Assembly (NCBI GenBank): GCA_947503835.1
Contig: CANNFM010000024.1
Span: 2,787-66,786 of the forward strand
Length of the DNA: 64,000 nucleotides
Direction of reading: 5' to 3'
Origin: an uncultured Aquimarina sp.
GTDB lineage: Bacteria; Bacteroidota; Bacteroidia; Flavobacteriales; Flavobacteriaceae
This document shows, piece by piece, positions 2,102 through 63,922 of the stretch; within the stretch, counting starts at the first letter, position 1, and each line of letters begins with the position of its first letter. Made by a program: the position numbers and the translations under genes. Under the pieces are notes generated by a model. The model was given only the letters and a program-made list of their open reading frames with translations. It was not told the origin of the DNA and did no database searches.

Positions 2102-2119
2102 TTCCTAATAGATGTATTT

Positions 2120-2995
2120 TCAATTAGAATTTAATGACATAGTTTTCATAGTGTCAGAGTTATATTTTTTGTTTAGGAAATCATAAATTATAAGCTCATA
2201 AAAACGTTGTTGTGATCTAAATGCTCTATTTACCATCATATGTATATAACTACTAATAAGATTATGTAATGACATTTCTAAAGAATTATTTTTGCTATAA
2301 TTTAAAATACGTCTAATGATTTCTTCTGTTGTATTGGCTTTATTGAGCAAAATTTTATCTAAAACTTCATAAGTCTCATTTGAATACGTATCACCTAAAA
2401 AAACAGAAATTTCTTTTTTTAAATTTCCGTATTTTTTATTGAGCTGTTTATTAAGGTTTTTATCAGCATTAAATTCAGCCTTATAACTATCTTTATTTTT
2501 AGAAACTAATATTACCTTTTCTTTAACTTCATATTCAAAGTTTTCTAATAATTGATGTATTGCCTTTAACACAAACAAAAAGTATAGCTCTTCATCTTCT
2601 ATTATTGACATGGCTTGTATCAACATTGTACTTTCATGATAAAAAAGCTCTTCGGATTCTTCAATAGTATTTGATCCGTATCGCTCTATTTCTCTTTGAT
2701 ATGTGTCAACTTGTATTTTATGTATTATGTCTTCATCTATATATGATCTTAATGCTTTATTCATCAAAAGAATTACTTCATTAATCTTTTTGATTTCATT
2801 AAGATGTAATCTAATTCTTATATGATACTCTGGATCATTATATCGTATAAAAAACCACTTATCTATAAGTTTATTTTTAATTAATTGTTCTACTAATGGT
2901 TTTATGGTCTCGGTTAAAATAATGTTAGACATTCTGGCACCACAATACAATTTGTAATACAACCATTCATCACCTAATAAGAATATTCTCTTCAT
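2120..2995 (-). CDS. Lanthipeptide/thiopeptide dehydratase C-terminal glutamate-elimination domain protein (SpaB_C-like); second half of a split LanB
   Basis: 291-aa ORF beginning MKRIFLLGDEWLYYKLYCG, the W-x-Y-x-K-h-Y opening characteristic of the LanB C-terminal / thiopeptide-type bacteriocin biosynthesis domain. Its ATG (2995-2993) overlaps the upstream ORF by 26 nt, suggesting translational coupling. Confidence 0.8.
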   Translation of the reverse strand: MKRIFLLGDEWLYYKLYCGARMSNIILTETIKPLVEQLIKNKLIDKWFFIRYNDPEYHIRIRLHLNEIKKINEVILLMNKALRSYIDEDIIHKIQVDTYQREIERYGSNTIEESEELFYHESTMLIQAMSIIEDEELYFLFVLKAIHQLLENFEYEVKEKVILVSKNKDSYKAEFNADKNLNKQLNKKYGNLKKEISVFLGDTYSNETYEVLDKILLNKANTTEEIIRRILNYSKNNSLEMSLHNLISSYIHMMVNRAFRSQQRFYELIIYDFLNKKYNSDTMKTMSLNSN

Positions 2996-5834: not shown

Positions 5835-6362
5835 ATGGGCAAACTTCTTAAAATAGGTTGGTACGTTTTATACGTTAGATCACATCAAGAAAAAAAAGTT
5901 GACAACTTGCTAAAAGAGAGTCAGCTGGAGTCATTTCTTCCTTTGGTAAAGACTGTAAGACAATGGAGTGATAGAAAGAAAATAATTGAAGCTCCTCTTT
6001 TTCCTTCATATGTTTTCGTCAAGATTAATTCTGCACAAGATTTCTATAAAGCATCATCGATTGAAGGTGCTTGCACCTTTATTCGCTGTGGTGGTGAATA
6101 TGCATTAGCCCAAGATCATGAAATACAAAAAATTAAGCTTTTTCTCGGTTCTAAGGATATCACTAATGTTGGTAAAGTTACCAGCAATCTTGAAGTTGGA
6201 GAAACTATGATGATTCAATACGGATCCCTTGCTGGTTTAGAATGTGAAGTCTTAAAGGTAAACAATGAAAATAAGATTGTTGTTCGATTAGATTCTATAA
6301 ATCAAGGTATTACTGCAACAATACCTTCGCAATTTTTATCAAAAATCTCAAAAGCAGTGTGA
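5835..6362 (+). CDS. NusG-family specialised paralogue (UpxY/LoaP/TaA-like transcription antiterminator)
   Basis: 175-aa ORF. It has an N-terminal NGN-like region (WYVLYVRSHQEKKVDNLL...PLFPSYVFVKI) and a C-terminal KOW-like region (GETMMIQYGSLAGLECEVLKVNNENKIVVRLD). It is the first gene of the ~58 kb co-directional block, and its TGA (6360-6362) overlaps the next start. Confidence 0.85.
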   Translation: MGKLLKIGWYVLYVRSHQEKKVDNLLKESQLESFLPLVKTVRQWSDRKKIIEAPLFPSYVFVKINSAQDFYKASSIEGACTFIRCGGEYALAQDHEIQKIKLFLGSKDITNVGKVTSNLEVGETMMIQYGSLAGLECEVLKVNNENKIVVRLDSINQGITATIPSQFLSKISKAV

Positions 6363-8633: not shown

Positions 8634-10300
8634 ATGAATTCTTTAAAAAAATATAAGACACTTTCTCAAGTGCTCGAATTTAGGAAAAACTCAACCAAGG
8701 GGATAACTTTTATCGAAGGTGGTGAGAAAGAAATTTTTCTTTCTTATAATGAGCTATACCATAAAGCTGTAACAAAATTGTCTTATCTGCAAAAGAAAGG
8801 AATAAAACCCCAAAATGAATTGGTGTTTCAAATTAATGATAATGAGACATTTATTATTCTTTTTTGGGCTTGTATTCTTGGAGGTATAATTCCTGTGCCG
8901 TTAAGTATTGGAAGAAATTCAGAACATAAACAGAAACTCTTCAATATTTGGCCAATATTAAATAACCCTTATTTAGCAATTTCAAAAGACGAAATTGGCA
9001 AACTTAAGAATTATGATGACAAGGATAAGTTGGCTGAGATAGAGGAAAAGATTATTGATTTTGAAGGTAAACTTAGCGGAAATAATACTGCAACAATATA
9101 TGAAGCACAAAAAGATGATATTGCTTTCATTCAATTTTCTTCGGGATCTACTGGAAACCCAAAAGGTGTAGTTTTAACTCATGAGAATTTGTTAACAAAT
9201 ATATTGGATATTAGTACGGCTTCAAGTTATGCCGAGGAAGATTCAATGATTAGCTGGATGCCACTCACTCATGATATGGGGCTTATAGGTTTTCATTTGA
9301 ACCCTTTGTTTATAGGAATGAATCATTATTTGATGCCTACGGATCTTTTTGTAAGAAGACCGTCTATATGGTTAGATAAAGCAAGTGAACACCAAATAAG
9401 TATTTTATGTTCTCCTAATTTTGGGTATAAATATATTTTAAAACATTGTAATGTTGACAGTTCAGAACAGTGGGATTTAAGTGCTGTTCGATTAATTTAC
9501 AATGGGGCAGAACCTATTTCAGAGACAATAAGTAATCAATTTTTAGAAAGTCTATCTAAATATGGATTAAAAAAATCTGCAATGTGTCCGGTTTATGGTT
9601 TAGCCGAAGCAAGTTTGGCGGTTACCATATCTAACCTTGAAGATACTGTTGTATCCTTTAATTTTGATAGAGATCAATTAAATACAGGAGATAAAGTTCG
9701 AATAACATCCAGGGAGGAAAATAATTCAGTGTCATTTGTTAAAGTAGGAAAACCGATTAATCATTGTTCGTTAAGAATTACAGATGAAAAAAATGAATTG
9801 GTTAAAGAAGAAGTAATAGGACACATTCAAATTAAAGGGGATAATGTTACATCTGGGTATTATAACAATCCTGAAGCTACTAGAAATGCTGTCATAGAAG
9901 ATGGCTGGGTTAAGACAGGAGATTTAGGTTTTATCAAAGATGAAGAACTATACGTAACAGGAAGATTAAAAGATATTATTTTTAGCAATGGGCAAAATTA
10001 CTATCCTCATGATATAGAACGTATAGCCGAAAAAGTAGATGAGATTGAACTTAATAAGGTTGCTTTTGGCGGTTTTTTTAATGGCAATACTCAAAAAGAA
10101 GAAATTATCGCTTTTGTATTTCATAGAGGAAGCTTAGATAAGTTTATCCCAATCGTAACAGCATTAAAAGAAGTGGTACATACAGAAATTGGGCTAGATA
10201 TAAATAGTGTAGTACCTGTAAAAAACATGCCGAAGACCACAAGCGGAAAGTTACAGCGCTTTAAGTTATTATCCGATTATAGAAATGGGGCTTTTGATGA
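8634..10300 (+). other. Fatty acyl-AMP ligase (FAAL) loading domain
   Basis: The motifs FSSGSTGNPKGVVLTHENLLTN and SWMPLTHDMGLIGFHLNPLFIG are FAAL-type rather than amino-acid A-domain type. An ACP follows directly. Boundaries are approximate. Confidence 0.8.
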
Positions 10301-13300
10301 AGTAAATGAAAAAGTGAAATCTTTAATTCTTGAAAAGAATTTCGACAATATAGTAGTACCTGCTAATGAGAAAGAGCATAAACTACTTACTATTTGGAAA
10401 AATGTTCTGGACTTCGAAAATATCAGTGTAGAAAAAAGCTTTTTTGAACTCGGAGGTAACTCATTAAAAGCCGCCGAAATGATGATGGCTTTGGTTAAAG
10501 AATTTCAAGTAGAAATCACACCTGATATACTCTATAAATATCAAACTATAAGAGGTTTAGCTTCAGTGTTAACTAAATTAAAACCCAAAACATATAATGC
10601 AATACCTAAGTCGGAGACTTCAAATTTTTATCCTGTTTCTAGTGCACAAAAAAGACTATACTATGCCTGGAAAATGGATAAAAGAAGTGTAGCATATAAT
10701 ACTCCTACTGCATTTAAAGTACAAGGAAGAATAAGCACTGAAAAATTAAGAAAGGTAATCAATGAATTAGTGAATAGACACGACGCCTTACGAATGGTGT
10801 TTGATGAGATGCCGAATCCTGTTTTTAGCACTGATGAAATAAATGAAGTGCCTATTTCAATTAAGAATTGTGAGCATCATACTATTCAAAACGAGCTTCG
10901 TAGACTCGTTGTGCCTTTTGATCTTACTACAGGACCATTATTTAGAATCACTGTTCTAAATATTGAAAATAAAGAGGCTATTCTGTTTTTAGATTTTCAT
11001 CATATTATTTCTGATGGAGTATCGATTCATCATTTTGTAAAAGAAATGATAACGCTATATGAAGGTAAGACATTAGAACCATTGACTATTGGTTATGGTG
11101 ATTATAGTAATTGGGAAAAAAACTATTATGATGAAGAAACTTTATCTTCACATCAATCGTATTGGTTAGACCAATTAAGAGGAGATTTACCAGAATTAAA
11201 GATAGAACCAGATTATCCAAGACCACCAATTTTTACTCCTAAAGGTGAAAAGATAGAGTTTGAATTCGATACTACTACAACTGCAAGATTAAAAACACTT
11301 GCTAATGAACAAGGGTGTACTTTACATGTGTTGATGTTTACCATGTACCATATGTTGATTGCCAAATACTCAGGAGCAAACGAAACAATAATAGGAATAC
11401 CAGTTGCAGGACGTAAACATCCAGATGTGCAATCCATGCAAGGAATGTTCGTTAACAACCTTCCGATAAGAAACACAATAAAAGGAGAACAAACAGTACG
11501 TGAAATCTTAAGAGATGTTGATGAACGTATTTCTAATGGGTTATTACATCAAGATTTTCCTTTTGATGAAATGATTACTGCAATTGCAAATACAAAGAAC
11601 ACCAGTAGAAACCCAATTTTCGATACGATGTTCGTTTATCAAAATATGGGAACCACAACACTTATTGGTCAAGATTTTACCTTGTCGAGATACTTTTTTG
11701 ATCCTGGCTATTCTAAGTTCGATATCTCCATAGAAGTTTTTGAAAATGACAAATCTCTTAAATATGGAATAGAATATAATACTACATTGTTTAAAAGAGA
11801 TATGATCCTAAATCTTCAAACATGTTTTGAAAATTTAGTAACTGAAATACTAAACGATCCAGATATTCCCTATGCAACATTATCATTACTAGACACTAAG
11901 GAAACCGATAGGTTTACTTATTTGTTTAATAATGATATTAAAACATATCCTAAAGAAAAAAGTGTATATCATCTGTTTGAAGAACAAGTACAAAGAGTAC
12001 CGAAATCGATAGCGTTAGAATTTGGTTCCCAAACGATGACATATGAAGAATTGAATGCTAAAGTTAACCACTTTGCTTTAGTACTAAAAGGAGAAGGAGT
12101 AGAGACTCAAGATGTTGTAAGTGTCTTGTTGCCAAGATCTTTTGAACTGGTGATCTCTATTCTGGGTGTAATGAAAATAGGAGGTGTATATGTTCCTTTA
12201 GATGCTGACCTACCCGAAGATCGTATTTGTTATATTTTAGAGCATAGTCAGTGTAAATATCTTATTACCAATTCTAACATGGAGTTAAAGGTTAACTCTG
12301 ATGATGAGGCTATATTTCCAGCATGTATTACCATAGATGATATCACATCGTCTAATGAGATTCTAAATACCAATATCGAATTTAAATACAGTTCTCAAAG
12401 TCCGGCATATATTTTATATACTTCCGGTACAACAGGTAAACCTAAAGGAGTTGTTGTTACAAATTCTTCTCTAACAAATTATACATGTTGGGCGGCAGAA
12501 ACATACATTAAAGAGAAATCAGCAAAATTTCCTTTATATACATCAATTTCATTTGATTTAACCGTAACCTCTATTTTTACTCCTTTAATTACTGGAAATA
12601 CAATTGTTATTTATGAAGAGGAACAGCAAGAAGTGTTGATAGAAAAAGTACTTAATGATGGTGTTGCAAACGTTGTGAAATTAACCCCATCACATCTAAA
12701 AATCATTCGAGATTTAAATATACAAGAAACACATTCAATTAAAAGATTTATAATAGGAGGTGAGGAGCTTGAAACCTCTCTGGCAAAAGATATTTACAAT
12801 CAATTTGGCGAAGATATAGAGCTATATAATGAATACGGTCCAACAGAAGCAACTGTAGGGTGCATGATATATAAGTTTGAACCAACAGATGATTTTAGAA
12901 CCGTTCCAATTGGGGTTCCTATAAAAAACACCCAAATCTATTTACTAGACGAATTCTTAAAACCTGTACCAGTCGGTGTACGAGGTGACTTATATATTTC
13001 GGGAGATGGGCTTGCACAAGGATATTTTAATAATGCCGCACTCACTAATGAGAAATTTATAGAAAATCCATTTGTAGAGGGGCAAAAAATGTATCAATCG
13101 GGAGATATTGCAGTAAGACGTTCTAATGGATTATTAGAGTATATCGGTAGATCAGACCAACAGATTAAAATTAATGGTTATAGAATTGAAATTCCTGAAA
13201 TCGAAAATTGTTTATTAGATCATTCAGGTATTAAACAAGCAATAGTCATATGTACTGATGCATCGGGAGAAAAATCATTACATGCCTATTATAGAAGCAT

Positions 13301-15092
13301 TGAAAATCAAAAAATCGATTATTCTGATTTGATAAGCTTTTTGGCAAACCGTCTGCCTTACTATATGATTCCAAGGTCATATACTTATGTAGAAAAAATG
13401 CCTTTAACCAAAAATGGTAAAATTGATCACAATGCATTACCTGAACCAGAGTTTCGAAGTGATAAAGCAGAAACAAGCTTTTCTGAAAATAGTATAGAGC
13501 AGACAATAGTAGAAGTGTGGCAAGAAATATTTGGAACTGAAAACATATCCATTAACGACAATTTCTTCGAAATGGGAGGAGACTCGATCAAGGCTGTTCA
13601 GATTTCTTCTAAATTAAACATGAATGGTATTACACTTGATGTAAAGGATATATTAACGTATCAAACCATCGCAATTACGGCACCTTATGCTAAAATTAAT
13701 CTTGAAAATGAAAAGTATGACCAGGGATTTGTCGAAGGGCTTAAAGCTTTAAACCCTATTGAAAGCTGGTTTATAAATCAAAAACTGCCAAACCCTAACT
13801 ATTATAATCAATCCGTTTTATTAAACTTCAATAAGCCAATAAATAATAAAGTCTTAAAACAAGCTTTCATGAGGTTGATTAACCATCATGATGGCTTAAG
13901 AATAAACTATAAACAAAATGAAAATAAGATATGGTTTAATGAAGCATACATAAATTATCCATTCAAAATTGAAAAATACAATATTAAAGTTGATGATGAA
14001 TTATTCGAAGTATGTACAAATATTAAAAACAGTATGGATATTGAAAATAGTTTGTTAATTAAAGCGGCTATTATTACATATCCAGATTCTTCTGAACAAT
14101 TATTTATTACAGCACATCATTTGGTTGTTGATGGAATTTCTTGGAGGATTCTACTTGATGATTTAAAGACAATTTATCAGTCGTTATTGTCAGATAATGA
14201 ACCCGTACTTCCAATGAAGACCATGTCTGTTAAAGAGTGGCAAACTTCACTTACAAGTTTAGTAGAGGAAACTAATTTTACAGCAAATGAAGTAGAGTAC
14301 TGGAAAAGTATAGAAGAAGAAGATTTTCAGTTGCCATATGATACAGAAACAAATGATTGGCGTTTTATAAACTCCAGACAAATAACGGTCAATCTTGATA
14401 AAGATCAAACAGCACACTTGTTGAAGAAAGCACATCGGTCCTATAAAACCAATATTGTTACATTATTAAGTACTGCACTCTCATTGGCACTTCAAGAATG
14501 GTTAAATAAAGAAGAGTTCGTTATTCAATTTGAAAATCACGGGAGACACATAGAGGATGTTGATGTTTCTAGAACAAGTGGATGGTTTACTGCGATGTAC
14601 CCAGTAAAACTTACCTTAATACAAGGACCAATAGATGATCAAATAAAAAGCATTAAAGAACAACTAGTGAGTGTTCCAAATAATGGACTAGGATACGGTA
14701 TTTCTAAATATATGAGAGATACAAAATTAGCTGATAATGACAAACTTTCAGAATTACGATTTAATTATCTAGGGCAATTTGATCAGGAGCTTACTAACGA
14801 TTTATTTGAATTCTCACAAGTATTTCATGGCAGTGAAGTCGGTCTTGAGAATATATTGACGACCAAGCTTGAGATTAATGCCATGGTTGTTCAAGAAAAG
14901 TTACAGATTTCTGCTAACTATAACAGTAAGTTTCATAAAAACGAAACTATATCGAGATTTTTGGAATCCTTCTTAATGAAATTATCTCTTATTATTGATC
15001 ATACCAAAAATCAAAAAGATATCCATTTCACTCCTTCTGATTTTGAAGCAATCAATTTAGAACAAGAAGAAATAGACTCACTATTCTCTTAA
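8634..15092 (+). CDS. Lipoinitiation NRPS: FAAL - ACP - C - A(Asn-type code) - T - E
   Basis: FAAL motifs: FIQFSSGSTGNPKGVVLTHENLL and SWMPLTHDMGLIG. ACP: FFELGGNSLKA (about 10441). C: FHHIISDGVS (about 10995). A: YTSGTTGKPKGV, NEYGPTEATVGC, LPYYMIP, NGKIDHNAL. By-eye specificity residues are D-L-T-K-I-G-E-V-G-K. T: FFEMGGDSIKAVQ (about 13563). E: AHHLVVDGISWRIL, ENHGRH, FNYLGQFD. Confidence 0.95.
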   Translation: MNSLKKYKTLSQVLEFRKNSTKGITFIEGGEKEIFLSYNELYHKAVTKLSYLQKKGIKPQNELVFQINDNETFIILFWACILGGIIPVPLSIGRNSEHKQKLFNIWPILNNPYLAISKDEIGKLKNYDDKDKLAEIEEKIIDFEGKLSGNNTATIYEAQKDDIAFIQFSSGSTGNPKGVVLTHENLLTNILDISTASSYAEEDSMISWMPLTHDMGLIGFHLNPLFIGMNHYLMPTDLFVRRPSIWLDKASEHQISILCSPNFGYKYILKHCNVDSSEQWDLSAVRLIYNGAEPISETISNQFLESLSKYGLKKSAMCPVYGLAEASLAVTISNLEDTVVSFNFDRDQLNTGDKVRITSREENNSVSFVKVGKPINHCSLRITDEKNELVKEEVIGHIQIKGDNVTSGYYNNPEATRNAVIEDGWVKTGDLGFIKDEELYVTGRLKDIIFSNGQNYYPHDIERIAEKVDEIELNKVAFGGFFNGNTQKEEIIAFVFHRGSLDKFIPIVTALKEVVHTEIGLDINSVVPVKNMPKTTSGKLQRFKLLSDYRNGAFDEVNEKVKSLILEKNFDNIVVPANEKEHKLLTIWKNVLDFENISVEKSFFELGGNSLKAAEMMMALVKEFQVEITPDILYKYQTIRGLASVLTKLKPKTYNAIPKSETSNFYPVSSAQKRLYYAWKMDKRSVAYNTPTAFKVQGRISTEKLRKVINELVNRHDALRMVFDEMPNPVFSTDEINEVPISIKNCEHHTIQNELRRLVVPFDLTTGPLFRITVLNIENKEAILFLDFHHIISDGVSIHHFVKEMITLYEGKTLEPLTIGYGDYSNWEKNYYDEETLSSHQSYWLDQLRGDLPELKIEPDYPRPPIFTPKGEKIEFEFDTTTTARLKTLANEQGCTLHVLMFTMYHMLIAKYSGANETIIGIPVAGRKHPDVQSMQGMFVNNLPIRNTIKGEQTVREILRDVDERISNGLLHQDFPFDEMITAIANTKNTSRNPIFDTMFVYQNMGTTTLIGQDFTLSRYFFDPGYSKFDISIEVFENDKSLKYGIEYNTTLFKRDMILNLQTCFENLVTEILNDPDIPYATLSLLDTKETDRFTYLFNNDIKTYPKEKSVYHLFEEQVQRVPKSIALEFGSQTMTYEELNAKVNHFALVLKGEGVETQDVVSVLLPRSFELVISILGVMKIGGVYVPLDADLPEDRICYILEHSQCKYLITNSNMELKVNSDDEAIFPACITIDDITSSNEILNTNIEFKYSSQSPAYILYTSGTTGKPKGVVVTNSSLTNYTCWAAETYIKEKSAKFPLYTSISFDLTVTSIFTPLITGNTIVIYEEEQQEVLIEKVLNDGVANVVKLTPSHLKIIRDLNIQETHSIKRFIIGGEELETSLAKDIYNQFGEDIELYNEYGPTEATVGCMIYKFEPTDDFRTVPIGVPIKNTQIYLLDEFLKPVPVGVRGDLYISGDGLAQGYFNNAALTNEKFIENPFVEGQKMYQSGDIAVRRSNGLLEYIGRSDQQIKINGYRIEIPEIENCLLDHSGIKQAIVICTDASGEKSLHAYYRSIENQKIDYSDLISFLANRLPYYMIPRSYTYVEKMPLTKNGKIDHNALPEPEFRSDKAETSFSENSIEQTIVEVWQEIFGTENISINDNFFEMGGDSIKAVQISSKLNMNGITLDVKDILTYQTIAITAPYAKINLENEKYDQGFVEGLKALNPIESWFINQKLPNPNYYNQSVLLNFNKPINNKVLKQAFMRLINHHDGLRINYKQNENKIWFNEAYINYPFKIEKYNIKVDDELFEVCTNIKNSMDIENSLLIKAAIITYPDSSEQLFITAHHLVVDGISWRILLDDLKTIYQSLLSDNEPVLPMKTMSVKEWQTSLTSLVEETNFTANEVEYWKSIEEEDFQLPYDTETNDWRFINSRQITVNLDKDQTAHLLKKAHRSYKTNIVTLLSTALSLALQEWLNKEEFVIQFENHGRHIEDVDVSRTSGWFTAMYPVKLTLIQGPIDDQIKSIKEQLVSVPNNGLGYGISKYMRDTKLADNDKLSELRFNYLGQFDQELTNDLFEFSQVFHGSEVGLENILTTKLEINAMVVQEKLQISANYNSKFHKNETISRFLESFLMKLSLIIDHTKNQKDIHFTPSDFEAINLEQEEIDSLFS

Positions 15093-15143
15093 ATAGTACT
15101 TATAAAACACTCATTTTACAATTATTAAATAAAAAACAATGAT

Positions 15144-16130
15144 ATGAAATCACATGATATACAAATAATTTCGGGTAAAAAAATGTTGCTTCAAATCGAT
15201 GATAACAAGGTTAATATTTTTGATTGGCTACATCAATATAAAGAAGATATAGAAGATTTTATTTCTGTTAATGGAGCACTATTAATTCGTGGCTTGGGGG
15301 TTTCTAATGATAAAGAATTTGGAGAAGCTTTAGAATTAGTATTTGGAGAAGAATTAGCAAATTATACATACAGATCTACTCCAAGAAGAGAAGTAAATCA
15401 AAGTAAAGTGTATACAGCAACAGAATATCATGCTTCTGAGGTAATTCCTCAACATAACGAAAATGCGTATTCGAATTCTTGGCCAATGAGAATAGGATTT
15501 ACCTGTTTGGTTCCTGCTGATAAAATGGGGAATACTCCAATTTCGGATAGTAGAGAAGCATACCAAAAAATTCCTATTGAAATAAGAGAAGAATTCGAAA
15601 GAAAGAACATCAAGTATGTTAGAAACTATTCAGATATAGATTTGCCATGGGAAGAAGTATTTCAAACCACTAGCAAGACAGAGGTAGAGCAATATTGTAA
15701 TGAAAACAATCTAACATTTGAATGGACAGATAATGGATTGAGAACTAGTCAGGTAAATCAAGCTACGATCATGCATCCAACTACAAAAGAGATGTTGTGG
15801 TTTAACCAAGCTCATTTGTTTCACTCTAGTAACTTAGATTCAGAAATTAGAGAAGGATTAATAGAGTTGTTTGGTGAAGATAATTTACCACGTAATTCGT
15901 TCTTTGGTGATGGTACCCCAATTGACGAAGAAGCACTTTCGATCATAAGAAAAGTGTTTGAGGATACTAAATTTTCTTTTCAATGGAGTAAAGGAGACTT
16001 ACTTCTTCTAGACAATATGTTATATACGCACGGAAGAGAACCTTATGAAGGAAACAGAAAAATCCTTGTAGGAATGGCTAAAAAATATAGCTCTCAAATG
16101 CGTCGTAGTAGAGTATCTACAGATTTATAA
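15144..16130 (+). CDS. TauD/TfdA-family Fe(II)/2-oxoglutarate dioxygenase (SyrP/AsnO-like amino-acid beta-hydroxylase candidate)
   Basis: 328-aa ORF. It has an H-x-E facial-triad candidate (QHNENAY), a distal His (LYTHGREPY) and the typical ~330-aa size of NRPS-associated hydroxylases. It is embedded between NRPS genes. Confidence 0.75.
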   Translation: MKSHDIQIISGKKMLLQIDDNKVNIFDWLHQYKEDIEDFISVNGALLIRGLGVSNDKEFGEALELVFGEELANYTYRSTPRREVNQSKVYTATEYHASEVIPQHNENAYSNSWPMRIGFTCLVPADKMGNTPISDSREAYQKIPIEIREEFERKNIKYVRNYSDIDLPWEEVFQTTSKTEVEQYCNENNLTFEWTDNGLRTSQVNQATIMHPTTKEMLWFNQAHLFHSSNLDSEIREGLIELFGEDNLPRNSFFGDGTPIDEEALSIIRKVFEDTKFSFQWSKGDLLLLDNMLYTHGREPYEGNRKILVGMAKKYSSQMRRSRVSTDL

Positions 16131-16466
16131 TTCTCTATCTTGATTTACGATATATTCAATAATATTTGTAAAGTATTATTTGAATAAAATTACCACTATA
16201 GCGCTTCATGATTACTTAGAAAATCATTAATATTTATGTTTGTTTTTTTGGACAATTCATCAAAAAATTAAGCAAATATAATAACTCACATAAAGAATAA
16301 TAGATGTGGGTAGAATTCACTTCAATACATAGAAAGAGTACATCTGTATTCTGCTGTAAACTGTTTAATGTATTAATAACAATTGCGAATTATCAAGGGA
16401 AGATAATGACGTAGTTATGCTTTAGAATCTCTCTTTTAGAAAGTAAAAACTGATAAAATTTTAATA

Positions 16467-17981
16467 ATGATAAGTATTCCTTTTAAACCATTTAAAACAT
16501 TCAGAAAAGACATTTGTAGTTGTATACTTTTTTTGGGTATCGCCCAATTAGGATTTACACAACTAAATAATCAGTATGATATTGTTTTGCAAGGAGGAAG
16601 AGTAATAGACCCTGAAACAAAACTTGACGCTATTCGAAATATAGGTATCCGTGATGGGCAAATTATTGAAATTTCAACTAAACCATTATCTGGAGCCGAA
16701 AACATTAATGTTTCTGGTCTAATTGTATCACCGGGGTTTATTGATTTGCATGTACATGGGATTACTAATGTAGAGCAAGAATACCAAATTAAAGATGGAG
16801 TAACCACTGCACTAGAGTTAGAGTGGGGGCTACCATTTTTAAAAGAATGGTATGAGCTGCGAAAGTCAAAAGCTATAATAAATTTTGGAGCAAGTGTTAA
16901 TTGGCCCATAACCAGAGTGCAATCGTTGGCTTCTTACCAAGAACAGCTAAGTTCTTTAAAAGAAACAATGTCTACAAAAGGTTTACCCGTGACAATGACT
17001 ATGCCCGCTTTTGGAAGAAGCTTTTATCAAGAACTACCTGTAGAGAAAATACCAGCGATGCTAGAGCATGTTCGGGCATCGCTAAAGAGTGGAGGATTAG
17101 GTATTAGTATGCCTATTGGGTATTTACCTGGCGCCAGTACCGAAGAAGTTTTTAGAACATATCAATTAGCCGGAGAGTTAAAATCACCTGTTTATGCACA
17201 TGTTAGAGAGGGTGGGATTATTGCCATTCAGCAAGTTATTTCTGATGCAGTGCTTACTAATGCTCCATTGCATATTTCTCATATCAATAGTATGGCTTTA
17301 AGCAACATTAATTTAGCTATTGAGATGGTGGATATCGCTCAAAAATCTGGATTTGATATCACAACAGAACTATATCCATATACAGCGGGTTCAACAGATT
17401 TAAAGTCCGCGATTTTTGATACGGGTTGGCAAAAAAAGTTGGGTATAAGTTTTAAAGATTTGCAGTGGGTTGCTTCTGGAGAACGATTAACAGAAGAAAC
17501 CTTTGCCAAGTATAGAAAAGAAGGAGGGACAGTTGTAATACATAATATGAAACCGGAGTGGATAGCATCAGGAGTTGCTTCAAAGAGTACAATTATAGCA
17601 TCAGACGGAATGCCATATGCAAAGTTAGCTCACCCTAGATCTTCAGGTACTTTCTCTAGAGTTTTAGGAAAATATGTTAGAGAGGATAAAGTACTAGATC
17701 TTATTGAAGCGATAAAGAAAATTACATTTCTTCCAGCAAAGAGATTGGAGATAATTGCCCCTGTAATGCAACGTAAAGGTAGAATTCAAGAAGGCGCAGA
17801 TGCAGATATTACAATATTCAATTTTGATAAAATAATAGACAAATCTACGTTCGAAAAAGGAATACAACCTTCAGAAGGAGTAGAATATGTTTTGGTTAAT
17901 GGTATTCCAGTTCTAAGAAAAGGAAAAATTGTAGAAAATGTTTTTCCTGGTCAACCTATTTACGGGAAATACAAAGATTGA
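16467..17981 (+). CDS. Secreted amidohydrolase-superfamily enzyme, N-acyl-D-amino-acid deacylase (D-aminoacylase, COG3653)-like
   Basis: 504-aa ORF with an N-terminal signal-like segment (basic n-region FKPFKTFRKD, hydrophobic ICSCILFLGIAQLGF). The core matches D-aminoacylases: DIVLQGGRVIDP, VSPGFIDLHVHG (HxH metal motif), DGVTT, and C-terminal GRIQEGADADITIFN...VEYVLVNGIPVLRKGK. Confidence 0.75.
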   Translation: MISIPFKPFKTFRKDICSCILFLGIAQLGFTQLNNQYDIVLQGGRVIDPETKLDAIRNIGIRDGQIIEISTKPLSGAENINVSGLIVSPGFIDLHVHGITNVEQEYQIKDGVTTALELEWGLPFLKEWYELRKSKAIINFGASVNWPITRVQSLASYQEQLSSLKETMSTKGLPVTMTMPAFGRSFYQELPVEKIPAMLEHVRASLKSGGLGISMPIGYLPGASTEEVFRTYQLAGELKSPVYAHVREGGIIAIQQVISDAVLTNAPLHISHINSMALSNINLAIEMVDIAQKSGFDITTELYPYTAGSTDLKSAIFDTGWQKKLGISFKDLQWVASGERLTEETFAKYRKEGGTVVIHNMKPEWIASGVASKSTIIASDGMPYAKLAHPRSSGTFSRVLGKYVREDKVLDLIEAIKKITFLPAKRLEIIAPVMQRKGRIQEGADADITIFNFDKIIDKSTFEKGIQPSEGVEYVLVNGIPVLRKGKIVENVFPGQPIYGKYKD

Positions 17982-18046
17982 TTTCAATGTACATCACTCA
18001 ATAAACTTCAATTCAAATTGATATACAAAACTATTAAAAGGAACTA

Positions 18047-21000
18047 ATGGCTAACAAGATCGACAAACAAAACGTTCAAGATATTTTTGAACTGAGTATG
18101 GTTCAAAAAGGAATGCTATTTCATCATTTAAAGGACGAAAGCGAAAACACATACAATGCCCAATTGGTATTTACTATTAATGGCAATTTAGATGTGAATA
18201 TATTACAATCTGCATTAAATGGTGTGCAAATTAATCATGAAGCTTTGCGTTCTGTTTTTAGATGGGAAGAAGTAAGCAAGCCTTTACAAATTATTTTAAA
18301 AACCGCTCCCATTAAGATCCAATATTATGATGTTTCTGATAAAAATGAAAGGGAACGTCAAATGTATATTGAAGAGTATGCTTTGAAAGATCAAAAAAAA
18401 CGTTTTGATCTTTCACAAGTTCCGATGCGAGTATCCGTAATAAAAGAGACAGAAACATCCTTTGTATTATGTATTACAAATCATCATATACTATATGATG
18501 GATGGAGCACGGGCATTTTATTAAAAGAACTTTTTGTCAATTATAATGAAATCGTTACTGGAAATGAGGTAAAAGCAAAACAAAAAATATCATATAAGAG
18601 ATATATCCTGTCTAAGCAAAAAGAAAATGATTTAGAAAAAGAACATGACTATTGGAAGAAATATTTGAAAGAATATCAAATTACTTCATGTTTTTCTAAA
18701 AAAGATAACGAAAATCAAACAGGGGAATCGGTAGAAAAAAAGCATTTAAAAGTTGGAATAGAATCAATTAAAAAACTATCCAAAGAACAAAAAATAACGC
18801 CAGCAGCCATAATTTATGCCGCCATTGGTGTTTTACTTCAAAAACTTACTGCAACTTCTGATATTGTTCTTGGGACTACAGTATCCGGAAGAGATGCGAC
18901 TATTGAAGGTGTAGAAGATCTTGTGGGTAACTTTATCAATACAATCCCATTAAGGATAACCAATGAAGGCAATGATGCTGATACATCATTTATTGAGGTC
19001 GCAAAAGGAGTCTATGAAGAAGGGTTAGTAAGAAACCAAAATACAAACACTTCTTACTATGAAATAAAAAAATTGCTGGAACTCAAAGCGTCTGAAGAAC
19101 TATTTGATGTTGTCGTTGTTGTCGAGAACTATCCCTTAGATGAAAAAGCTATCAATGGAAATCCAGATTTTGAAGTTAAGTTAAAATCGGTATACGAAAA
19201 TACCGGGATTCCTTTGGTAATTACTGTGTTTTTAAAGGAAGAGTTAGAGTTAGAATTGATCTATCAACCTTCAATAATCAGCGAAGATAATATAGATTTA
19301 TTTTCAGTTTCTTTAGAAAGAATATTGAATCAAATTCAAGAAAACCCTACAGTACCCGCACATTCTTTTGGGCTTTTAAGCGAAAAAGAAATGGCTTGGC
19401 AAATAGAGACCTTCAATGAAACTGCAAAAGAACTGCCAAAATCAGAGACCGTACTTTCTCTTTTTGCCAAGCAGCAAATATCTACTCCTAATAAAGTGGC
19501 CGTTATATGTGGATCAGAGCAATTGACATATCAAGAATTGGGAGATTTATCTGATAAAATTGCGGCCTATCTAAAACAAGAAAAAGGAATTCAAAAGGGA
19601 GAATTGGTAGGTTTAATGCTAGGAAGAGATTTTAATTTAGTTCCGATAATTTTAGGTGTTTTAAAGGCTGGAGCTGCCTATGTGCCTATTGACCCAACGT
19701 ATCCGGTTGTAAGAATTAATAATATTCTAGAACAGTCGAAATTAGGACTTTTAGTAACAGAGAATAAGGATATAGCTTCATCATTAAGCACAACTTCTCA
19801 GATTATTGATGTGCAAGACCTAATGATAAGTCTTCCAGAAATAAATGTTTTATCGCAAGAAAATACTCTAAAAGATGACCTGGCTTACGTAATTTTTACA
19901 TCTGGATCTACTGGAACTCCAAAAGGAGTTATGATAGAGCATGCTACTTTGCTAAATTATATTTACTGGGCTGCAACTTATTATGTGAAGGAAGAAGAGC
20001 TCACTTTTCCATTATATTCTTCTATTTCCTTTGACTTAACAGTTACATCGATTTTTACACCATTAATAACAGGAAATACTATTATCGTTTATAAAGATGA
20101 AACTAATCGACTTCCAATTGATGCAGTACTTAAGGATAATAGAATTAACATCGTTAAGTTAACTCCTTCACACTTAAAAATAATCAGAGATAATGATCTG
20201 TTTGATGCAGCTACAAGTACTATTCGAAAGCTAATTGTAGGAGGAGAAGAATTAGAATATCATCTGGCTAAAGATATTATAGAAAAATTCAACGGTGATG
20301 TAACGATTTATAACGAATATGGGCCTACAGAAGCAACCGTTGGTTGTATGATTTATGATTTTGATACTTCTCTAAACACAGGGTCGGTATCACTAGGAAA
20401 CCCTATTAATAATACTCAGGTTTATATTCTGGATCCTAATATGAACCCTGTTCCGGTTGGGGTAAAAGGAGAATTATATATAGCAGGAGAAGGATTAGCA
20501 AGAGGATACTTGGGTAGAAAGGATTTAACCCAGGAACGATTTATCGAAAATCCCTTTAACCCTGGTAAAAAGATGTATAAAACAGGAGATTATGCCATTA
20601 GGGAGAAAGGCAATCATATCCTTTTTAATGGCAGAATAGATGAGCAGATAAAAATATCGGGTTATAGAATCGAACTAAAAGAAATTGAGAATACTCTTTC
20701 TACATATCCCAAAATTAAAGAATCGGTAGTAGCAGTTAAGGAAAAAGATAATAACAAGATACTGGTAGCATATTATTTGTCAGATAGCGAAATTGCTATC
20801 GATAGTTTAAAAAAATATGTAGAAGATAAACTCCCTACATATATGCTTCCTATGTATTACATAAAACTAGAAGCATTACCCCTAACCTCAAATGGAAAAC
20901 TAGACTATAAGAAATTACCTGAGGCAGATTCCTTAGTAGTTGATGATTATCACGCACCTTCGACTACCATAGAAAAATTATTGGTTAAGCATTGGTCCGA

Positions 21001-24000
21001 TGTGTTGAAAGTTCCTGTAATCAGTACTACAGATAATTATTTTTTGATTGGGGGGGATTCAATAAAATCAATTCAAATAAGTTCAAAAATGAGAGCTGAT
21101 GGTTTTGAGGTATCAGTTCAGGATATTTTTAGAAATCCAACAATTAAAGCGTTAGCTTCTGTAACTAAACCTTTAACAACTCCGATAGATCAATCGACAG
21201 TTACTGGTGAAGTTGTATTAAGCCCAATTCAGCAATGGTTTTTCGATAAATCTGAAACAGATCAACATCATTTTAATCAATCGTCTGTACTGAGTTTTGA
21301 TTCAAAAGTAACAGTACAAACGGTTCAAAAAATATTTTCTGAAATTCTTACTCATCACGATGCCCTTCGTATGGTTTTTAAGAAAGAGGGAGAAAATATC
21401 CATCAACAAAATCAAGAGGATACAATAAAGGTTGATATAAAGGAATATGATTTAACGCCAATAGAAAACCCAGAGGAGACGATCCTTTATCATGCTAATG
21501 ATTTACAATCTCAGATAGATTTAGCTAATGGCCCTTTACTAAAATTAGGGTTATTTCAGACTAAAACTGGAAGTCGCTTGCTCATCGTGATACATCATTT
21601 AGTTATAGATGGAATTTCATGGCGAATTTTATTGGAAGATATAGATACCTTATATGGCCAAATCATAGATAATAGTCCTGTTAAACTTCCTTTAAAGACA
21701 GATTCTTTTAAAAATTGGTCACAAGCACTCAAAAAATATACGAATAGTGAAAGCTATCAAAAAGGCAAATCATATTGGGAAACTCATTTAGAAAAAGAAA
21801 ACTCAATAATTAAAAGAGATTTTCCTGATGGCCTTAATATCTATAAGAACCATGGTAGCGAGATATTAGAATTAAATGAACTTGAGACAAAGCAATTACT
21901 AACGCAAGCACATGCTGCATATGGAACACAAATAAATGAACTCTTAATGTCGGCATTTTTATTAGCCGTAAGCAAGAAATTTGACGTCAATGATATATGG
22001 GTTGATTTAGAAGGACATGGAAGAGAAGAAATTGTTCCAGGAATTAATGTAGGTCGTACGTTAGGTTGGTTTACAAGTATCTATCCGGTTTTGTTAGAGA
22101 AAAGAGGTGAAGATATTTCGGATGTGATAAGAAATGTAAAAGAAAGGTTAAGAACCGTCCCAAATAAAGGGGTAGATTATTTGATGACTCAGTACACCGA
22201 TGTACTTCCTTTAGAGGAAAAAAGTAACGCAGGTATTAGTTTCAACTATTTAGGACAATTTGAGTCGGCATATGAAAATTTTCACATGCTGAAAGAGAGT
22301 AAAGGAGATGAGATTTCTCTAAATATGGAACAACCCTATGATTGGAATGTTATAGGATGGGTTTCTGATGAAAAACTAAAATTAGAACTGGTTTATAGTA
22401 CACAACAGTATCAAAAAGAAACCATAGTTTCTTTTATAGAATTATTCAAAGAAAGCCTACACGATGTTATCACTCACTGTTGTCAGCATAATGAGGTAAC
22501 GTTAACTCCTTCAGATTTAACGTACAATGAATTGTCTATTGATGATTTAGATCAAATTCAATCTAATTTAGAGATAGAAGATATTTATAAATTGGCACCA
22601 ACCCAAGAAGGAATGCTATTTCATTCCATTTTGGAGCCTACTTCTAAAGTTTATTTTGATCAAAAGGTATTGACACTTCAGGGAGCTGTAAATGTTGATG
22701 CAATCAAAAAAAGTATGCAAGCTTTAGTCGATCGTTATGAGGTTTTTAGAACAGTATATAAGCATGAGAACCTAGAATATCCTTTGCAAATTGTACTAAA
22801 AGAAAGAGATATAGATGTCGATTATATTGATGTTCAAGAAGCGTGCAACACTCAATCTATACAAGAAGTTGTCGATACCTACATCCAAAAGGATAGAGTC
22901 AAACGCTTCAATTTGTTAAAGGATGTGCTAATGCGCGTTACCCTTCTAAAAGTAAAAGAAGAAGAATACCGAATGATTTGGTCAAACCATCATATTGCTA
23001 TGGATGGTTGGTGTACTACTCTATTATGGAATGATTTTCAGAAACTATATGTTGGATTTAGCAAGAATATACCATTAAAGTTAGAAGGAGTACCTAAATA
23101 TTCTGAGTATATAAAGTGGCTTCAACAAAGAGATCAACAAGAATCAAAAAGCTATTGGTTTAAGTATTTGGAGAATTACGAGAAAACAATTTCCATTCCA
23201 AAAAACAATAACACAAAAGAGGAAACTTATGATTTGCAAAGTCACTCATTTTCGTTGAATAAAGAAAATACTCAAGCAATACAGCAGTTATCAAAGAAAT
23301 GTGCAGTAACCTTGAGTACTATCTTTCAGGCAGCTTGGGGAATTTTGCTATCCAAGTATAACCATACAAGTGATATCATATTTGGTAATGTCGTTTCGGG
23401 AAGAAATTCTGAAATAGAAGGAGTAGATAGTATTGTGGGACTCTTTATCAAAATCCTTCCCGTAAGGATTGCGTATACGGAGCAAGATACTATAGCCTCA
23501 ATATTGAGAAAAAGCCAAGAAAAAGCTTTCGAAGTACAAGCTCATCATGAGTCATCTCTATTAGAAATCCAAGAACAGACACCTTTAGGGAATAGATTGT
23601 TTGATCATATCATGGTTTTTGAAAACTATCCTATTTCTAATGGAATTCAAGGAGTGGACGATCCCAATTATGGATTTTCGGTAGAGGAAATTGAGGTTCA
23701 TGAGCAAACGAATTATGATCTGAATGTAATTATCATTCCTGGAGAAGTTATCAAAGTACAGGTTGATTACAATCAAAATATTTATAGTAATGTAATAATT
23801 AAGGAAGTTCTTTCTCATTTCGAAAACATCATAGAGCAATTAATTAATGATGTAAACATGCCGATCACTAAATTAAAATTGGTGAGCGATCAGGAAAGAA
23901 CCAATTTACTTAATGAATCAAACAAAACTCAAATAAAGTATCCTAAAAATGAAACGCTCGTTGATCTATTTTTAAAACAGGTACAAGAGCATCCGGATAA

Positions 24001-63838: not shown

Positions 63839-63895
63839 ATAATTTGAAGTGAAAAAGCATTTATTATAATATCTACAACGCAAAACCTAAAGAAT

Positions 63896-63922
63896 ATATA
63901 CAATAGTATATTGCCTTTTTTT
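63896..63922 (+). terminator. Weak candidate intrinsic terminator after the last NRPS gene
   Basis: The stem is atatac/gtatat (6 bp, AT-rich) with loop aata, then tgcc and a run of seven T (63916-63922). It lies about 60 nt after the stop at 63838. Confidence 0.3.

What the first reader, a model, noticed from the sequence alone, without database searches (positions are those of the whole stretch)
16467..17981. Secreted D-aminoacylase-like hydrolase embedded beside the acyl-D-Asn module: a non-ClbP maturation or deacylation step?
An amidohydrolase of the N-acyl-D-amino-acid deacylase type, with a signal peptide, sits between the protein that makes acyl-D-Asn and the next NRPS. Enzymes of this family hydrolyse the amide between an acyl group and a D-amino acid. 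A periplasmic copy could strip the fatty acid from the exported N-acyl-D-Asn lipopeptide. This would be conceptually like PvdQ removing the PvdL-installed acyl chain from the pyoverdine precursor, or the ClbP-type prodrug logic, but using a different enzyme superfamily and cleaving on the other side of D-Asn. I am not aware of a metallo-amidohydrolase fulfilling this role.
Basis: inference. Interest (0 to 1): 0.75.

Follow-up and report, generated by a model that had tools for sequence, protein, structure and literature searches.

The report
Accessory periplasmic D-aminoacylase in prodrug cluster
A secreted metal-dependent hydrolase, of the kind that removes acyl groups from D-amino acids, was inserted only in Aquimarina into an antibiotic-type gene cluster that starts its product with acyl-D-asparagine; it is an optional extra, probably clearing the acyl-D-Asn fragment that a ClbP-like peptidase releases, not a replacement for that peptidase.

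Summary
The ORF at 16467-17981 is real. It encodes a 504-aa amidohydrolase of the PRK09061 / D-aminoacylase group with a Sec-type signal peptide. It lies in a co-directional NRPS-PKS operon of an Aquimarina species, two genes after FAAL-ACP-C-A(Asn)-T-E, which would make N-acyl-D-Asn.

The "non-ClbP maturation" reading is not supported. Orthologous clusters in Flavobacterium jejuense and in metagenomes have the same genes and the same A-domain codes but no amidohydrolase. One of them has a MacB-type permease gene in that slot. One also encodes, downstream, a ZmaM-type ClbP-peptidase/ABC fusion with every D-Asn-recognition residue. The cluster family therefore uses canonical prodrug logic, and the amidohydrolase is an Aquimarina-specific accessory.

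The gene is kept under purifying selection (dN/dS about 0.08) in four Aquimarina lineages. Its relatives elsewhere in Bacteroidota are periplasmic enzymes never found next to NRPS genes, and sometimes directly adjacent to S12 peptidase genes.

The enzyme keeps the pocket residues that bind a free alpha-carboxylate. My best guess (confidence about 0.36) is that it hydrolyses the N-acyl-D-Asn released by the ClbP-like peptidase. The rivals are a passenger gene, deacylation of the intact pre-drug, and self-protection. No enzyme activity was tested.

The parts
16467..17981 (+). Gene for the 504-aa secreted PRK09061 / D-aminoacylase-like amidohydrolase (this is the finding)
   Evidence: ORF. NF006560 at 482 bits. 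PDB 1m7j at 9e-34. Foldseek TM 0.7 to D-aminoacylases and OngB. dN/dS 0.07-0.10 across four Aquimarina orthologues.
16467..16559 (+). Signal peptide, residues 1 to about 26-31. The n-region has 4 K/R, the h-region is roughly residues 16-30, and the likely SPase I sites are A26|Q27 or T31|Q32.
   Evidence: The AF2 model shows a lone helix at residues 8-30. The same layout is present in 120/120 homologues. The Gln at +1 fits the Bacteroidetes 'Q-rule', which I cite from my own knowledge.
16749..16757 (+). HxH metal-binding motif (H95, H97)
   Evidence: Aligns with H67/H69 of 1m7j. Invariant in the family. Residue numbering checked.
16815..16826 (+). E117-L-E119-W120. W120 occupies the position of the metal-bridging Cys96 of D-aminoacylase. 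E117 and E119 are invariant and may supply the ligand instead (inferred).
   Evidence: HMMER alignment to 1m7j. Family conservation.
17199..17282 (+). H245 and H272, the second pair of metal ligands. S271 next to H272 is Aquimarina-specific (Val in 97% of the other homologues).
17373..17393 (+). Y303-P-Y305...S309: the 'YPY..GST' element that forms the alpha-carboxylate (c-)site of D-acylases
   Evidence: Alignment to 1m7j and 3gip. Residue roles from PMC12149444 section 3.5. Invariant in the family.
17604..17645 (+). D380 (general base) and the H-P-R391 carboxylate-binding Arg, followed by the Aquimarina-specific S392-S393 (Thr-Ala in 97% of the other homologues)
16131..16466 (+). 336-bp AT-rich spacer upstream of the gene, the longest gap in the operon. 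It belongs to the Aquimarina-specific insertion and may hold its own promoter (not shown).
   Evidence: Gap table. Partly conserved in four Aquimarina. No similarity to the orthologous clusters. No Rfam match. No terminator-like site on the + strand.
8634..15092 (+). FAAL-ACP-C-A(Asn)-T-E synthetase, which builds the N-acyl-D-Asn starter (the prodrug motif)
   Evidence: Motifs. Code DLTKIGEVGK. FAAL NF006624 and the E-domain marker TIGR01720.
15144..16130 (+). TauD/TfdA-family dioxygenase, the upstream neighbour. I used it as a marker to find the orthologous clusters.
   Evidence: Pfam PF02668 at 7e-36. Homologues at 72-74% identity in Flavobacterium and others.
18047..25801 (+). NRPS2: C-A(Asn)-T-E-C-A-T, the downstream neighbour. 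The gap to it is 65 bp.
5835..6362 (+). UpxY-family transcription antiterminator at the head of the co-directional operon
   Evidence: NF033644 at 142 bits against a cut-off of 100. A NusG-like gene is also present at the head of L096 and L097.

Best explanation
[quoted passage not shown] An Aquimarina ancestor captured it from a widespread Bacteroidota family of periplasmic enzymes and inserted it into a ClbP/ZmaM-type prodrug NRPS-PKS cluster.

Proposed mechanism:
1. The assembly line starts with N-acyl-D-Asn (shown from the domain analysis).
2. The pre-drug is exported, and a ClbP-like peptidase cuts after D-Asn. This peptidase is shown only in an orthologous cluster and is inferred for Aquimarina.
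3. The cut releases N-acyl-D-Asn with a free carboxylate into the periplasm.
4. The amidohydrolase splits it into fatty acid and D-Asn (inferred). This would remove a detergent-like by-product, and a possible product inhibitor of the peptidase, and allow salvage.

The enzyme is an optional accessory, not a maturation step.
For: Enzyme class and catalytic residues:
- H95, H97, H245, H272, D380 and Y219 are conserved. So are the free-carboxylate site residues Y303/Y305, S309 and R391.

Location:
- A signal peptide is present.

Pathway context:
- The starter module makes acyl-D-Asn.
- The orthologous cluster has a ZmaM-type ClbP fusion with all D-Asn-binding residues.

Maintenance in Aquimarina:
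- The gene holds the same place in 4 Aquimarina lineages at dS 0.6-1.3, with dN/dS 0.07-0.10, the same as the flanking NRPS and TauD genes.
- GC3 is 0.228, equal to the neighbours.
- It is on the same strand, inside an operon headed by a UpxY antiterminator, with no terminator-like site between the genes.
- Among the 120 best homologues, the only Aquimarina proteins are these cluster-embedded ones.

Specialisation and parallels:
- Twelve Aquimarina-specific substitutions fall at otherwise conserved sites, including S271 next to a metal ligand and S392/S393 next to the carboxylate-binding Arg.
- Elsewhere in Bacteroidota, homologues sit directly next to S12 peptidase genes (L002, L044, L075). 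That is the same S12 + amidohydrolase pairing.
Against: - No activity was tested.
- The ClbP-like gene was not seen in Aquimarina. The window ends 162 nt after the last NRPS gene, and related contigs break there.
- Sister clusters work without the enzyme.
- The r-site residue (F317) is invariant across the whole family and is not tuned to Asn.
- The metal-bridging Cys is missing (W120).
- The 336-bp upstream spacer could carry an independent promoter.
- The family is abundant in non-cluster contexts: 0 of about 55 other loci of at least 8 kb have NRPS neighbours. Unrelated housekeeping use therefore remains plausible.
Confidence: 0.36

Rival explanations
1. Passenger gene. It is an ordinary periplasmic D-amino-acid/peptide-catabolic amidohydrolase that landed in a permissive intergenic slot of the cluster. 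It is kept for its general function, unrelated to the cluster's product.
For: - The family is widespread in Bacteroidota, with thousands of hits at about 60% identity.
- Contexts elsewhere are varied and non-biosynthetic, near S12, M28/M20 and S58 peptidases or other amidohydrolases. No NRPS neighbours were found outside Aquimarina.
- Orthologous clusters lack the gene, and the same slot holds a different gene in L098.
- It has its own 336-bp upstream spacer.
- All catalytic and pocket residues are simply the family consensus.
Against: - It sits in the middle of a co-directional NRPS operon and has stayed there through dS of about 1 under strong purifying selection.
- No non-cluster Aquimarina homologue appears among the best hits.
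- Its enzyme class matches the pathway's obligatory by-product.
- It carries lineage-specific substitutions beside active-site residues.
Confidence: 0.28
2. The enzyme strips the fatty acyl group from the exported N-acyl-D-Asn lipopeptide (PvdQ-like deacylation), as a maturation or alternative activation step.
For: - Periplasmic location, and the acyl-D-Asn N-terminus of the product.
- A. faecalis D-aminoacylase deacylates N-acetyl-D-Met-Gly and N-acetyl-D-Met-OMe, so a free carboxylate is not absolutely required (PMC12149444).
- The S392/S393 changes next to R391 could relax the carboxylate site (speculative).
Against: - The gene is absent from orthologous clusters, so it is not needed for maturation.
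- A canonical D-Asn-specific ClbP/ZmaM peptidase exists in the cluster family.
- The carboxylate-binding Arg/Tyr/Ser are fully conserved.
- Deacylating the pre-drug would compete with ClbP-type activation.
Confidence: 0.12
3. Self-protection. The periplasmic hydrolase inactivates the mature toxic product, or stray activated product, at a D-residue. This would be functionally like the S12 D-stereospecific resistance peptidases found in some NRPS clusters.
For: - It is accessory and lineage-specific, as resistance genes often are.
- The same slot holds a MacB-type efflux permease gene in L098.
- The sister cluster carries an extra S12 D-peptidase-like gene.
- The product contains several D-residues, from E domains in orf8634, orf18047 and orf25810.
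Against: - D-aminoacylase-group enzymes act on N-acyl-D-amino acids or terminal D-residues, not on internal peptide bonds.
- Prodrug logic already provides self-protection.
- No data exist on the product or its toxicity.
Confidence: 0.12

Closest known systems
D-aminoacylase of Alcaligenes faecalis DA1 (PDB 1m7j), N-acyl-D-Glu deacylase Bb3285 (3gip) and Klebsiella D-acylase (9g5m)
   Same: Same fold (TM about 0.7). It has the HxH, His, His and Asp catalytic set, the n-site Tyr and the c-site Tyr/Ser/Arg.
   Different: Only about 22-25% identity. The bridging Cys96 is replaced (W120, with invariant E117/E119 nearby). The known enzymes start directly at the catalytic core, whereas this one carries a signal peptide and belongs to the separate PRK09061 subfamily, which I believe has no characterised member.
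OngB carbohydrate de-N-acetylase (PDB 9kb1/9kb3; PMC12017989)
   Same: Equally close by fold (TM 0.69-0.73) and close by sequence (8e-26). Its substrate is also a 2-acylamino acid with a free carboxylate.
   Different: OngB belongs to oxidative chitin catabolism, not to a biosynthetic cluster. Nothing here points to GlcNAc1A as the substrate.
ClbP / ZmaM prodrug-activating peptidases
   Same: Both are periplasmic hydrolases tied to the N-acyl-D-Asn motif of NRPS-PKS products. A ZmaM-type enzyme occurs in the orthologous cluster.
   Different: ClbP/ZmaM are S12 serine peptidases with a transmembrane domain that cut on the C-terminal side of D-Asn. This protein is a soluble metallo-amidohydrolase that would cut the acyl-N bond. 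It is an addition to ClbP-type logic, not a substitute for it.
PvdQ (pyoverdine acylase) and other lipopeptide acylases
   Same: The concept is the same: periplasmic removal of an NRPS-installed fatty acyl chain.
   Different: PvdQ is an Ntn hydrolase and is required for maturation. This enzyme comes from another superfamily and is dispensable in sister clusters.
Secreted metal-dependent bile salt hydrolases (PF07969; bioRxiv, PMC13081902 and PMC13081988)
   Same: They are secreted Amidohydro_3 metalloenzymes that cleave a bulky lipid-like acyl group from an amino-acid-type amine.
   Different: They belong to the YtcJ/Nsfd-like branch with a carboxylated-Lys metal centre and are taurine-specific. 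They are not the D-aminoacylase branch.

Membership tests
N-acyl-D-amino-acid deacylase group (D-aminoacylase, COG3653 / PRK09061) of the amidohydrolase superfamily | Full-length match to a curated family model above its cut-off | tested here: met
   NF006560 at 482 bits against a cut-off of 340, residues 31-500.
N-acyl-D-amino-acid deacylase group (D-aminoacylase, COG3653 / PRK09061) of the amidohydrolase superfamily | TIM-barrel plus beta-sandwich fold that is closest to D-aminoacylases | tested here: met
   The top 9 Foldseek hits are D-aminoacylases or OngB, with TM 0.68-0.75 and E about 1e-24. The next group (dihydroorotase etc.) has TM about 0.5 and E about 1e-14. The model quality is only moderate (pLDDT 72).
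N-acyl-D-amino-acid deacylase group (D-aminoacylase, COG3653 / PRK09061) of the amidohydrolase superfamily | Metal and catalytic residues HxH, His220, His250 and Asp366 (1m7j numbering) | tested here: met
   H95, H97, H245, H272 and D380 align with them and are invariant in the family.
N-acyl-D-amino-acid deacylase group (D-aminoacylase, COG3653 / PRK09061) of the amidohydrolase superfamily | Metal-bridging Cys96 | tested here: not met
   W120 aligns with Cys96. E117 and E119 are invariant nearby and may replace it, but that is inferred.
N-acyl-D-amino-acid deacylase group (D-aminoacylase, COG3653 / PRK09061) of the amidohydrolase superfamily | Carboxylate (c-)site Tyr/Ser/Arg and n-site Tyr | tested here: met
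   Y303/Y305, S309, R391 and Y219 are conserved. Residue roles come from PMC12149444.
N-acyl-D-amino-acid deacylase group (D-aminoacylase, COG3653 / PRK09061) of the amidohydrolase superfamily | D-stereospecific hydrolysis of N-acyl amino acids | not testable with these tools
   This needs an enzyme assay.
ClbP-type N-acyl-D-Asn prodrug system (membership of the cluster, not of the enzyme) | Starter module that installs N-acyl-D-Asn (acyl loading, A(Asn), E) | tested here: met
   FAAL-ACP-C-A(DLTKIGEVGK)-T-E.
ClbP-type N-acyl-D-Asn prodrug system (membership of the cluster, not of the enzyme) | Membrane-bound S12 peptidase with D-Asn-binding residues, encoded in the cluster | tested here: inconclusive
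   None is present in the 64-kb window. One is present in the orthologous cluster on L099, with E92, S95, K98, Y186, T188, N331, W460 and W466. The Aquimarina region downstream of the window could not be fetched.
ClbP / S12 peptidase (membership of the enzyme itself) | Beta-lactamase/S12 fold with SxxK and YxN motifs | tested here: not met
   Pfam reports only Amidohydro_1/3, and the fold is a TIM-barrel amidohydrolase.
PvdQ-type Ntn-hydrolase acylases | Ntn-hydrolase (penicillin-amidase) fold | tested here: not met
   No such Pfam or PDB match was found.
Dihydroorotase / hydantoinase / allantoinase housekeeping amidohydrolases | Full-length match above the family cut-offs | tested here: not met
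   Only the N-terminal 60-residue beta-sandwich matches, at 30-56 bits against cut-offs of 280-730. Foldseek TM is about 0.5.

The most novel reading that the evidence does not exclude
This would be a dedicated 'prodrug-scaffold clearing' enzyme: the first enzyme known to hydrolyse the N-acyl-D-Asn fragment released by ClbP-type activation. It would have been recruited from a periplasmic D-aminoacylase family into a Bacteroidota prodrug cluster. This adds a third step (by-product removal and salvage) to the export-then-cleave logic. The less likely variant is a second, ClbP-independent processing route that deacylates the pre-drug.
Probability: 0.3. Interest if true: 0.6.

Novelty: new variant of a known kind. 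Interest (0 to 1): 0.42.

Why it matters
If the link to the pathway is real, ClbP-type prodrug pathways can carry an extra enzyme that disposes of the N-acyl-D-Asn leaving group. That metabolite accumulates and is used as a marker in colibactin, amicoumacin and related systems, and I found no known degradation route for it in the literature searched.

It would also give the large, uncharacterised PRK09061 family of periplasmic Bacteroidota amidohydrolases its first physiological substrate.

Separately, the cluster family extends ClbP/ZmaM-type prodrug logic into Bacteroidota. If the gene is a passenger, the result is simply an ordinary periplasmic amidohydrolase sitting in a variable slot of a cluster.

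Tried and rejected
- Fetching the window's own contig beyond 64 kb failed. Three exact-protein look-ups were not on record. The orthologous Aquimarina contigs break inside or just after the last NRPS gene. I therefore could not check whether Aquimarina has a ClbP/ZmaM gene.
- The sigma-70 promoter and terminator scan of 15000-18200 found no more sites than shuffled sequence. Bacteroidetes promoters are not covered by that scan.
- By eye I found a TAnnTTTG-like element (TATGTTTG, 16235-16242) in the spacer. Only its TTTG part is conserved among the Aquimarina loci, so I do not use it.
- The Rfam search of the 336-bp spacer found nothing.
- Literature searches for a D-aminoacylase or amidohydrolase tied to NRPS clusters or to the prodrug motif found nothing relevant. 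Papers on Aquimarina NRPS clusters do not describe this cluster.
- The Cummings 2009 paper on Bb3285 is not held in the library.
- Recent horizontal transfer was rejected on composition: GC3 equals that of the neighbours.
- A lipoprotein signal was rejected. Cys17 and Cys19 precede the hydrophobic core instead of following it (read directly from the sequence).
- A dihydroorotase/hydantoinase identity was rejected.
Full report
**1.

The window (32% G+C) carries a run of co-directional genes from 5835 to 63838. The ORF at 16467-17981 encodes 504 aa. It matches NCBIfam NF006560 (PRK09061, an 'amidohydrolase family protein' that several sources name D-glutamate deacylase) over residues 31-500 at 482 bits against a cut-off of 340. 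Dihydroorotase, allantoinase and hydantoinase models match only the first ~60 residues of the mature protein, far below their cut-offs.

The best solved relatives by sequence are D-aminoacylase (1m7j, 9e-34), N-acyl-D-Glu deacylase (3gip, 3e-31), Klebsiella D-acylase (9g5m) and the carbohydrate de-N-acetylase OngB (9kb1). An AlphaFold2 model of moderate quality (pLDDT 72, pTM 0.70) gives the same nine structures at TM 0.68-0.75 and E about 1e-24. Dihydroorotases and similar enzymes follow ten orders of magnitude behind.

**2. Active site**

In the HMMER alignments to 1m7j and 3gip, these residues align and are invariant among homologues:
- H95 and H97 (the HxH motif)
- H245 and H272
- D380 (general base)
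- Y219 (n-site Tyr)
- Y303/Y305, S309 and R391 (the alpha-carboxylate or 'c-site')

Residue roles come from PMC12149444, section 3.5.

There is one departure. The metal-bridging Cys96 of D-aminoacylase aligns with W120, while E117 and E119 just before it are invariant. A Glu ligand is a reasonable inference, but I did not show it.

**3. Secretion**

Compared with the cytoplasmic D-aminoacylases, the protein has 35 extra N-terminal residues. They contain four K/R, a hydrophobic stretch (mean Kyte-Doolittle 2.77) and small-residue/Gln sites at A26|Q27 or T31|Q32. All 120 closest homologues have the same layout, with an [AGSTC]-Q site just before the conserved YDIVL core. The model shows a lone helix at residues 8-30. 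The Gln at +1 fits the Bacteroidetes 'Q-rule' for signal peptidase I substrates, which I cite from my own knowledge. There is no lipobox after the hydrophobic core. The protein is most likely periplasmic.

**4. Genomic surroundings**

The source is an Aquimarina species; 84-90% identical proteins occur in Aquimarina sp. 2304DJ70-9, A. mytili and an uncultured Aquimarina. The gene order is:

| Coordinates | Gene |
|---|---|
| 5835-6362 | UpxY-family antiterminator |
| 6359-8446 | odd T-C protein |
| 8634-15092 | FAAL-ACP-C-A-T-E |
| 15144-16130 | TauD-family dioxygenase |
| 16467-17981 | the amidohydrolase |
| 18047-25801 | C-A(Asn)-T-E-C-A-T |
| 25810-36153 | KS-AT-KR-ACP-C-A-T-E-C |
| 36202-42321 | A(Asn)-T-C-A(with LLM monooxygenase insert)-T |
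| 42334-51258 | KS-AT-KR-ACP-C-A(Asn)-T-C |
| 51311-53173 | AsnB homologue |
| 53398-56556 | A-T-C |
| 56666-63838 | last NRPS in the window; contains A(Ser)-T-C and ends in A-T |

These assignments rest. The first A domain has the code DLTKIGEVGK (Asn) and is followed by an E domain (TIGR01720, 135 bits).

**5. The gene is not a core part of the cluster family**

I used TauD as a marker and found orthologous clusters in Flavobacterium jejuense (L096) and two metagenome contigs (L097, L098/L099). They have the same gene order, 52-62% amino-acid identity and identical or near-identical A-domain codes.
- In L096 and L097, TauD is followed directly by NRPS2 after a gap of about 187 bp.
- In L098 the same slot holds a MacB/FtsX permease gene.
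- tblastn finds no remnant of the amidohydrolase in these loci. DNA similarity to the window stops at the end of TauD and resumes at the start of NRPS2.

The amidohydrolase, its 336-bp upstream spacer and its 65-bp downstream spacer are thus an Aquimarina-specific insertion in a variable slot.

**6. The cluster family uses canonical ClbP-type prodrug logic**

On L099, downstream of the orthologue of the window's last NRPS gene, lie these genes:
- an S12-family gene (500 aa)
- a second TauD
- an Asp/Glu racemase
- a 1024-aa protein
- a Cupin_8 gene
- further NRPS genes

Residues 41-491 of the 1024-aa protein match full-length ClbP, including its transmembrane domain (7mdc, 5e-52). Residues 534-1010 match ABC exporters.

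In the residue-level alignment, this protein has the equivalents of E92, S95, K98, Y186, Thr at position 188, N331, W460 and W466. These are the catalytic and D-Asn-recognition residues that distinguish prodrug-activating peptidases from other S12 enzymes (PMC9889268). The fusion to an ABC half-transporter is the ZmaM architecture described in that paper.

The window contains no S12 gene. It ends 162 nt after the last NRPS stop codon, with no ORF start in that stretch. Related Aquimarina contigs break there too, and look-ups for the window's own contig failed. The Aquimarina copy of the peptidase is therefore inferred, not seen.

**7. What the enzyme's relatives do elsewhere**

Beyond the four Aquimarina proteins, identity drops to 66% or less, and thousands of Bacteroidota homologues lie at about 60%. 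Of 59 loci of at least 8 kb (95 loci held in all at that point), only the four Aquimarina loci have NRPS or PKS neighbours.

Close homologues lie among peptidase genes (S12, M28/M20, S58) or near other amidohydrolases. In three independent loci (L002, L044, L075) an S12 gene is directly adjacent. The family looks like a general periplasmic hydrolase for D-amino-acid-containing or N-acylated compounds, often paired with an S12 enzyme.

**8. Is the Aquimarina copy maintained?**

Yes. Across the four lineages dS is 0.6-1.3 and dN/dS is 0.07-0.10. The values for comparison are 0.08-0.12 for the FAAL-NRPS gene, 0.05-0.09 for TauD and 0.12-0.16 for NRPS2. GC3 is 0.228, indistinguishable from the neighbours, so the insertion is old.

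Twelve positions that are at least 85% conserved in the other 116 homologues are changed in all four Aquimarina proteins. They include K109 (His elsewhere), S271 (next to the ligand H272) and S392-S393 (right after the carboxylate-binding R391). This hints at retuned specificity but does not prove it.

**9. Most likely mechanism**

What is shown:
- the enzyme class
- the conserved catalytic and carboxylate-site residues
- the signal peptide
- the acyl-D-Asn starter module
- the ClbP/ZmaM peptidase in an orthologous cluster
- the accessory status of the gene
- purifying selection on it

What is inferred: after export and ClbP-type cleavage, N-acyl-D-Asn with a free carboxylate is released in the periplasm. 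That is the textbook substrate type for this enzyme group, and the amidohydrolase would split it into fatty acid and D-Asn. It also mirrors the S12 + amidohydrolase pairing seen elsewhere. I put this at about 0.36.

The passenger-gene reading (about 0.28) stays strong, because the pathway evidently works without the enzyme and its pocket is the family consensus. Deacylation of the pre-drug (about 0.12) is not excluded chemically, because A. faecalis D-aminoacylase accepts N-acetyl-D-Met-Gly. Self-protection (about 0.12) fits the accessory status and the efflux gene in the same slot of L098.

**10. Novelty**

As a protein, this is a new member of a known superfamily branch. As a cluster component, I found no precedent: no D-aminoacylase-type enzyme in an N-acyl-D-Asn prodrug cluster, and no enzyme that degrades the prodrug scaffold. 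The secreted metallo bile-salt hydrolases show that secreted PF07969 enzymes can remove bulky acyl groups, but they belong to another branch. I therefore file it as a new variant of a known kind, at moderate interest, because the functional link is circumstantial and the gene is dispensable in sister clusters.

Noticed in passing
L099:20570-23644 (metagenome contig Ga0634394_00020, orthologous cluster): A ZmaM-type fusion of a ClbP-like peptidase and an ABC half-transporter, with all D-Asn-recognition residues, sits in a Bacteroidota NRPS-PKS cluster. PMC9889268 reports prodrug-activating peptidases mostly in Firmicutes, with some in Proteobacteria and Actinobacteria, so this would extend the mechanism to Bacteroidota.
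   Followed up: partly
window 6359-8446: A 695-aa protein made of an A-domain C-terminal fragment, a T domain and a C domain. The HHxxxDG motif of the C domain is degenerate (SHNMILD, with the second His replaced by Asn). Its start overlaps the UpxY gene by 4 nt. It is present in the Aquimarina orthologues (L001, L004, L006) but absent from L096-L098, so it is a second Aquimarina-specific addition.
   Followed up: partly
window 5835-6362: A UpxY-family (NusG-like) transcription antiterminator heads the NRPS-PKS operon. NusG-like genes occupy the same position in L096 and L097.
   Followed up: partly
window 40153-41166 (within orf 36202-42321): The second A domain of this NRPS is interrupted by a MupA/Atu3671-type FMN-dependent luciferase-like monooxygenase (TIGR04020, 490 bits). 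From memory, this resembles the MtaG/MelG modules that hydroxylate glycine to give a terminal amide. Here it sits mid-line, before a PKS module.
   Followed up: no
window 11931-13434, 18047-25801, 36202-42321, 42334-51258, 51311-53173: Four A domains share the Asn code DLTKIGEVGK, and an asparagine synthase (AsnB) homologue is encoded in the cluster. The product should be Asn-rich, with its own Asn supply.
   Followed up: partly
window 353-5276 (minus strand): A split LanB-type dehydratase (Lant_dehydr_N, 768 aa, plus a thiopeptide-type Lant_dehydr_C, 291 aa) lies next to an AraC/TPR regulator, divergent from the NRPS operon. It may be a separate RiPP locus. I did not look for a precursor peptide.
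   Followed up: no
L098:11082-13454: In one orthologous cluster, the slot between TauD and NRPS2 holds a MacB/FtsX-type permease gene instead of the amidohydrolase. This intergenic position is a hotspot for accessory genes.
   Followed up: partly
L002:8583-11488; L044:10001-12574; L075:1-2530: S12 beta-lactamase-family genes lie directly adjacent to PRK09061-type amidohydrolase genes in unrelated Bacteroidota and metagenome loci. This suggests a recurring S12 peptidase + amidohydrolase catabolic pair.
   Followed up: partly
L099:17159-20483: In the sister cluster, the last NRPS gene is followed by an S12-family protein (500 aa; its best PDB hits are Pbp-related beta-lactamase and alkaline D-peptidase, not ClbP), a second TauD and an Asp/Glu racemase. 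Their roles are unknown.
   Followed up: partly
window 63839-64000: The 162 nt after the stop codon of the last NRPS gene are AT-rich, with stops in all three + frames and no ORF start. The sister cluster starts its next gene 46 nt after the stop. No TE domain is present anywhere in the window.
   Followed up: partly
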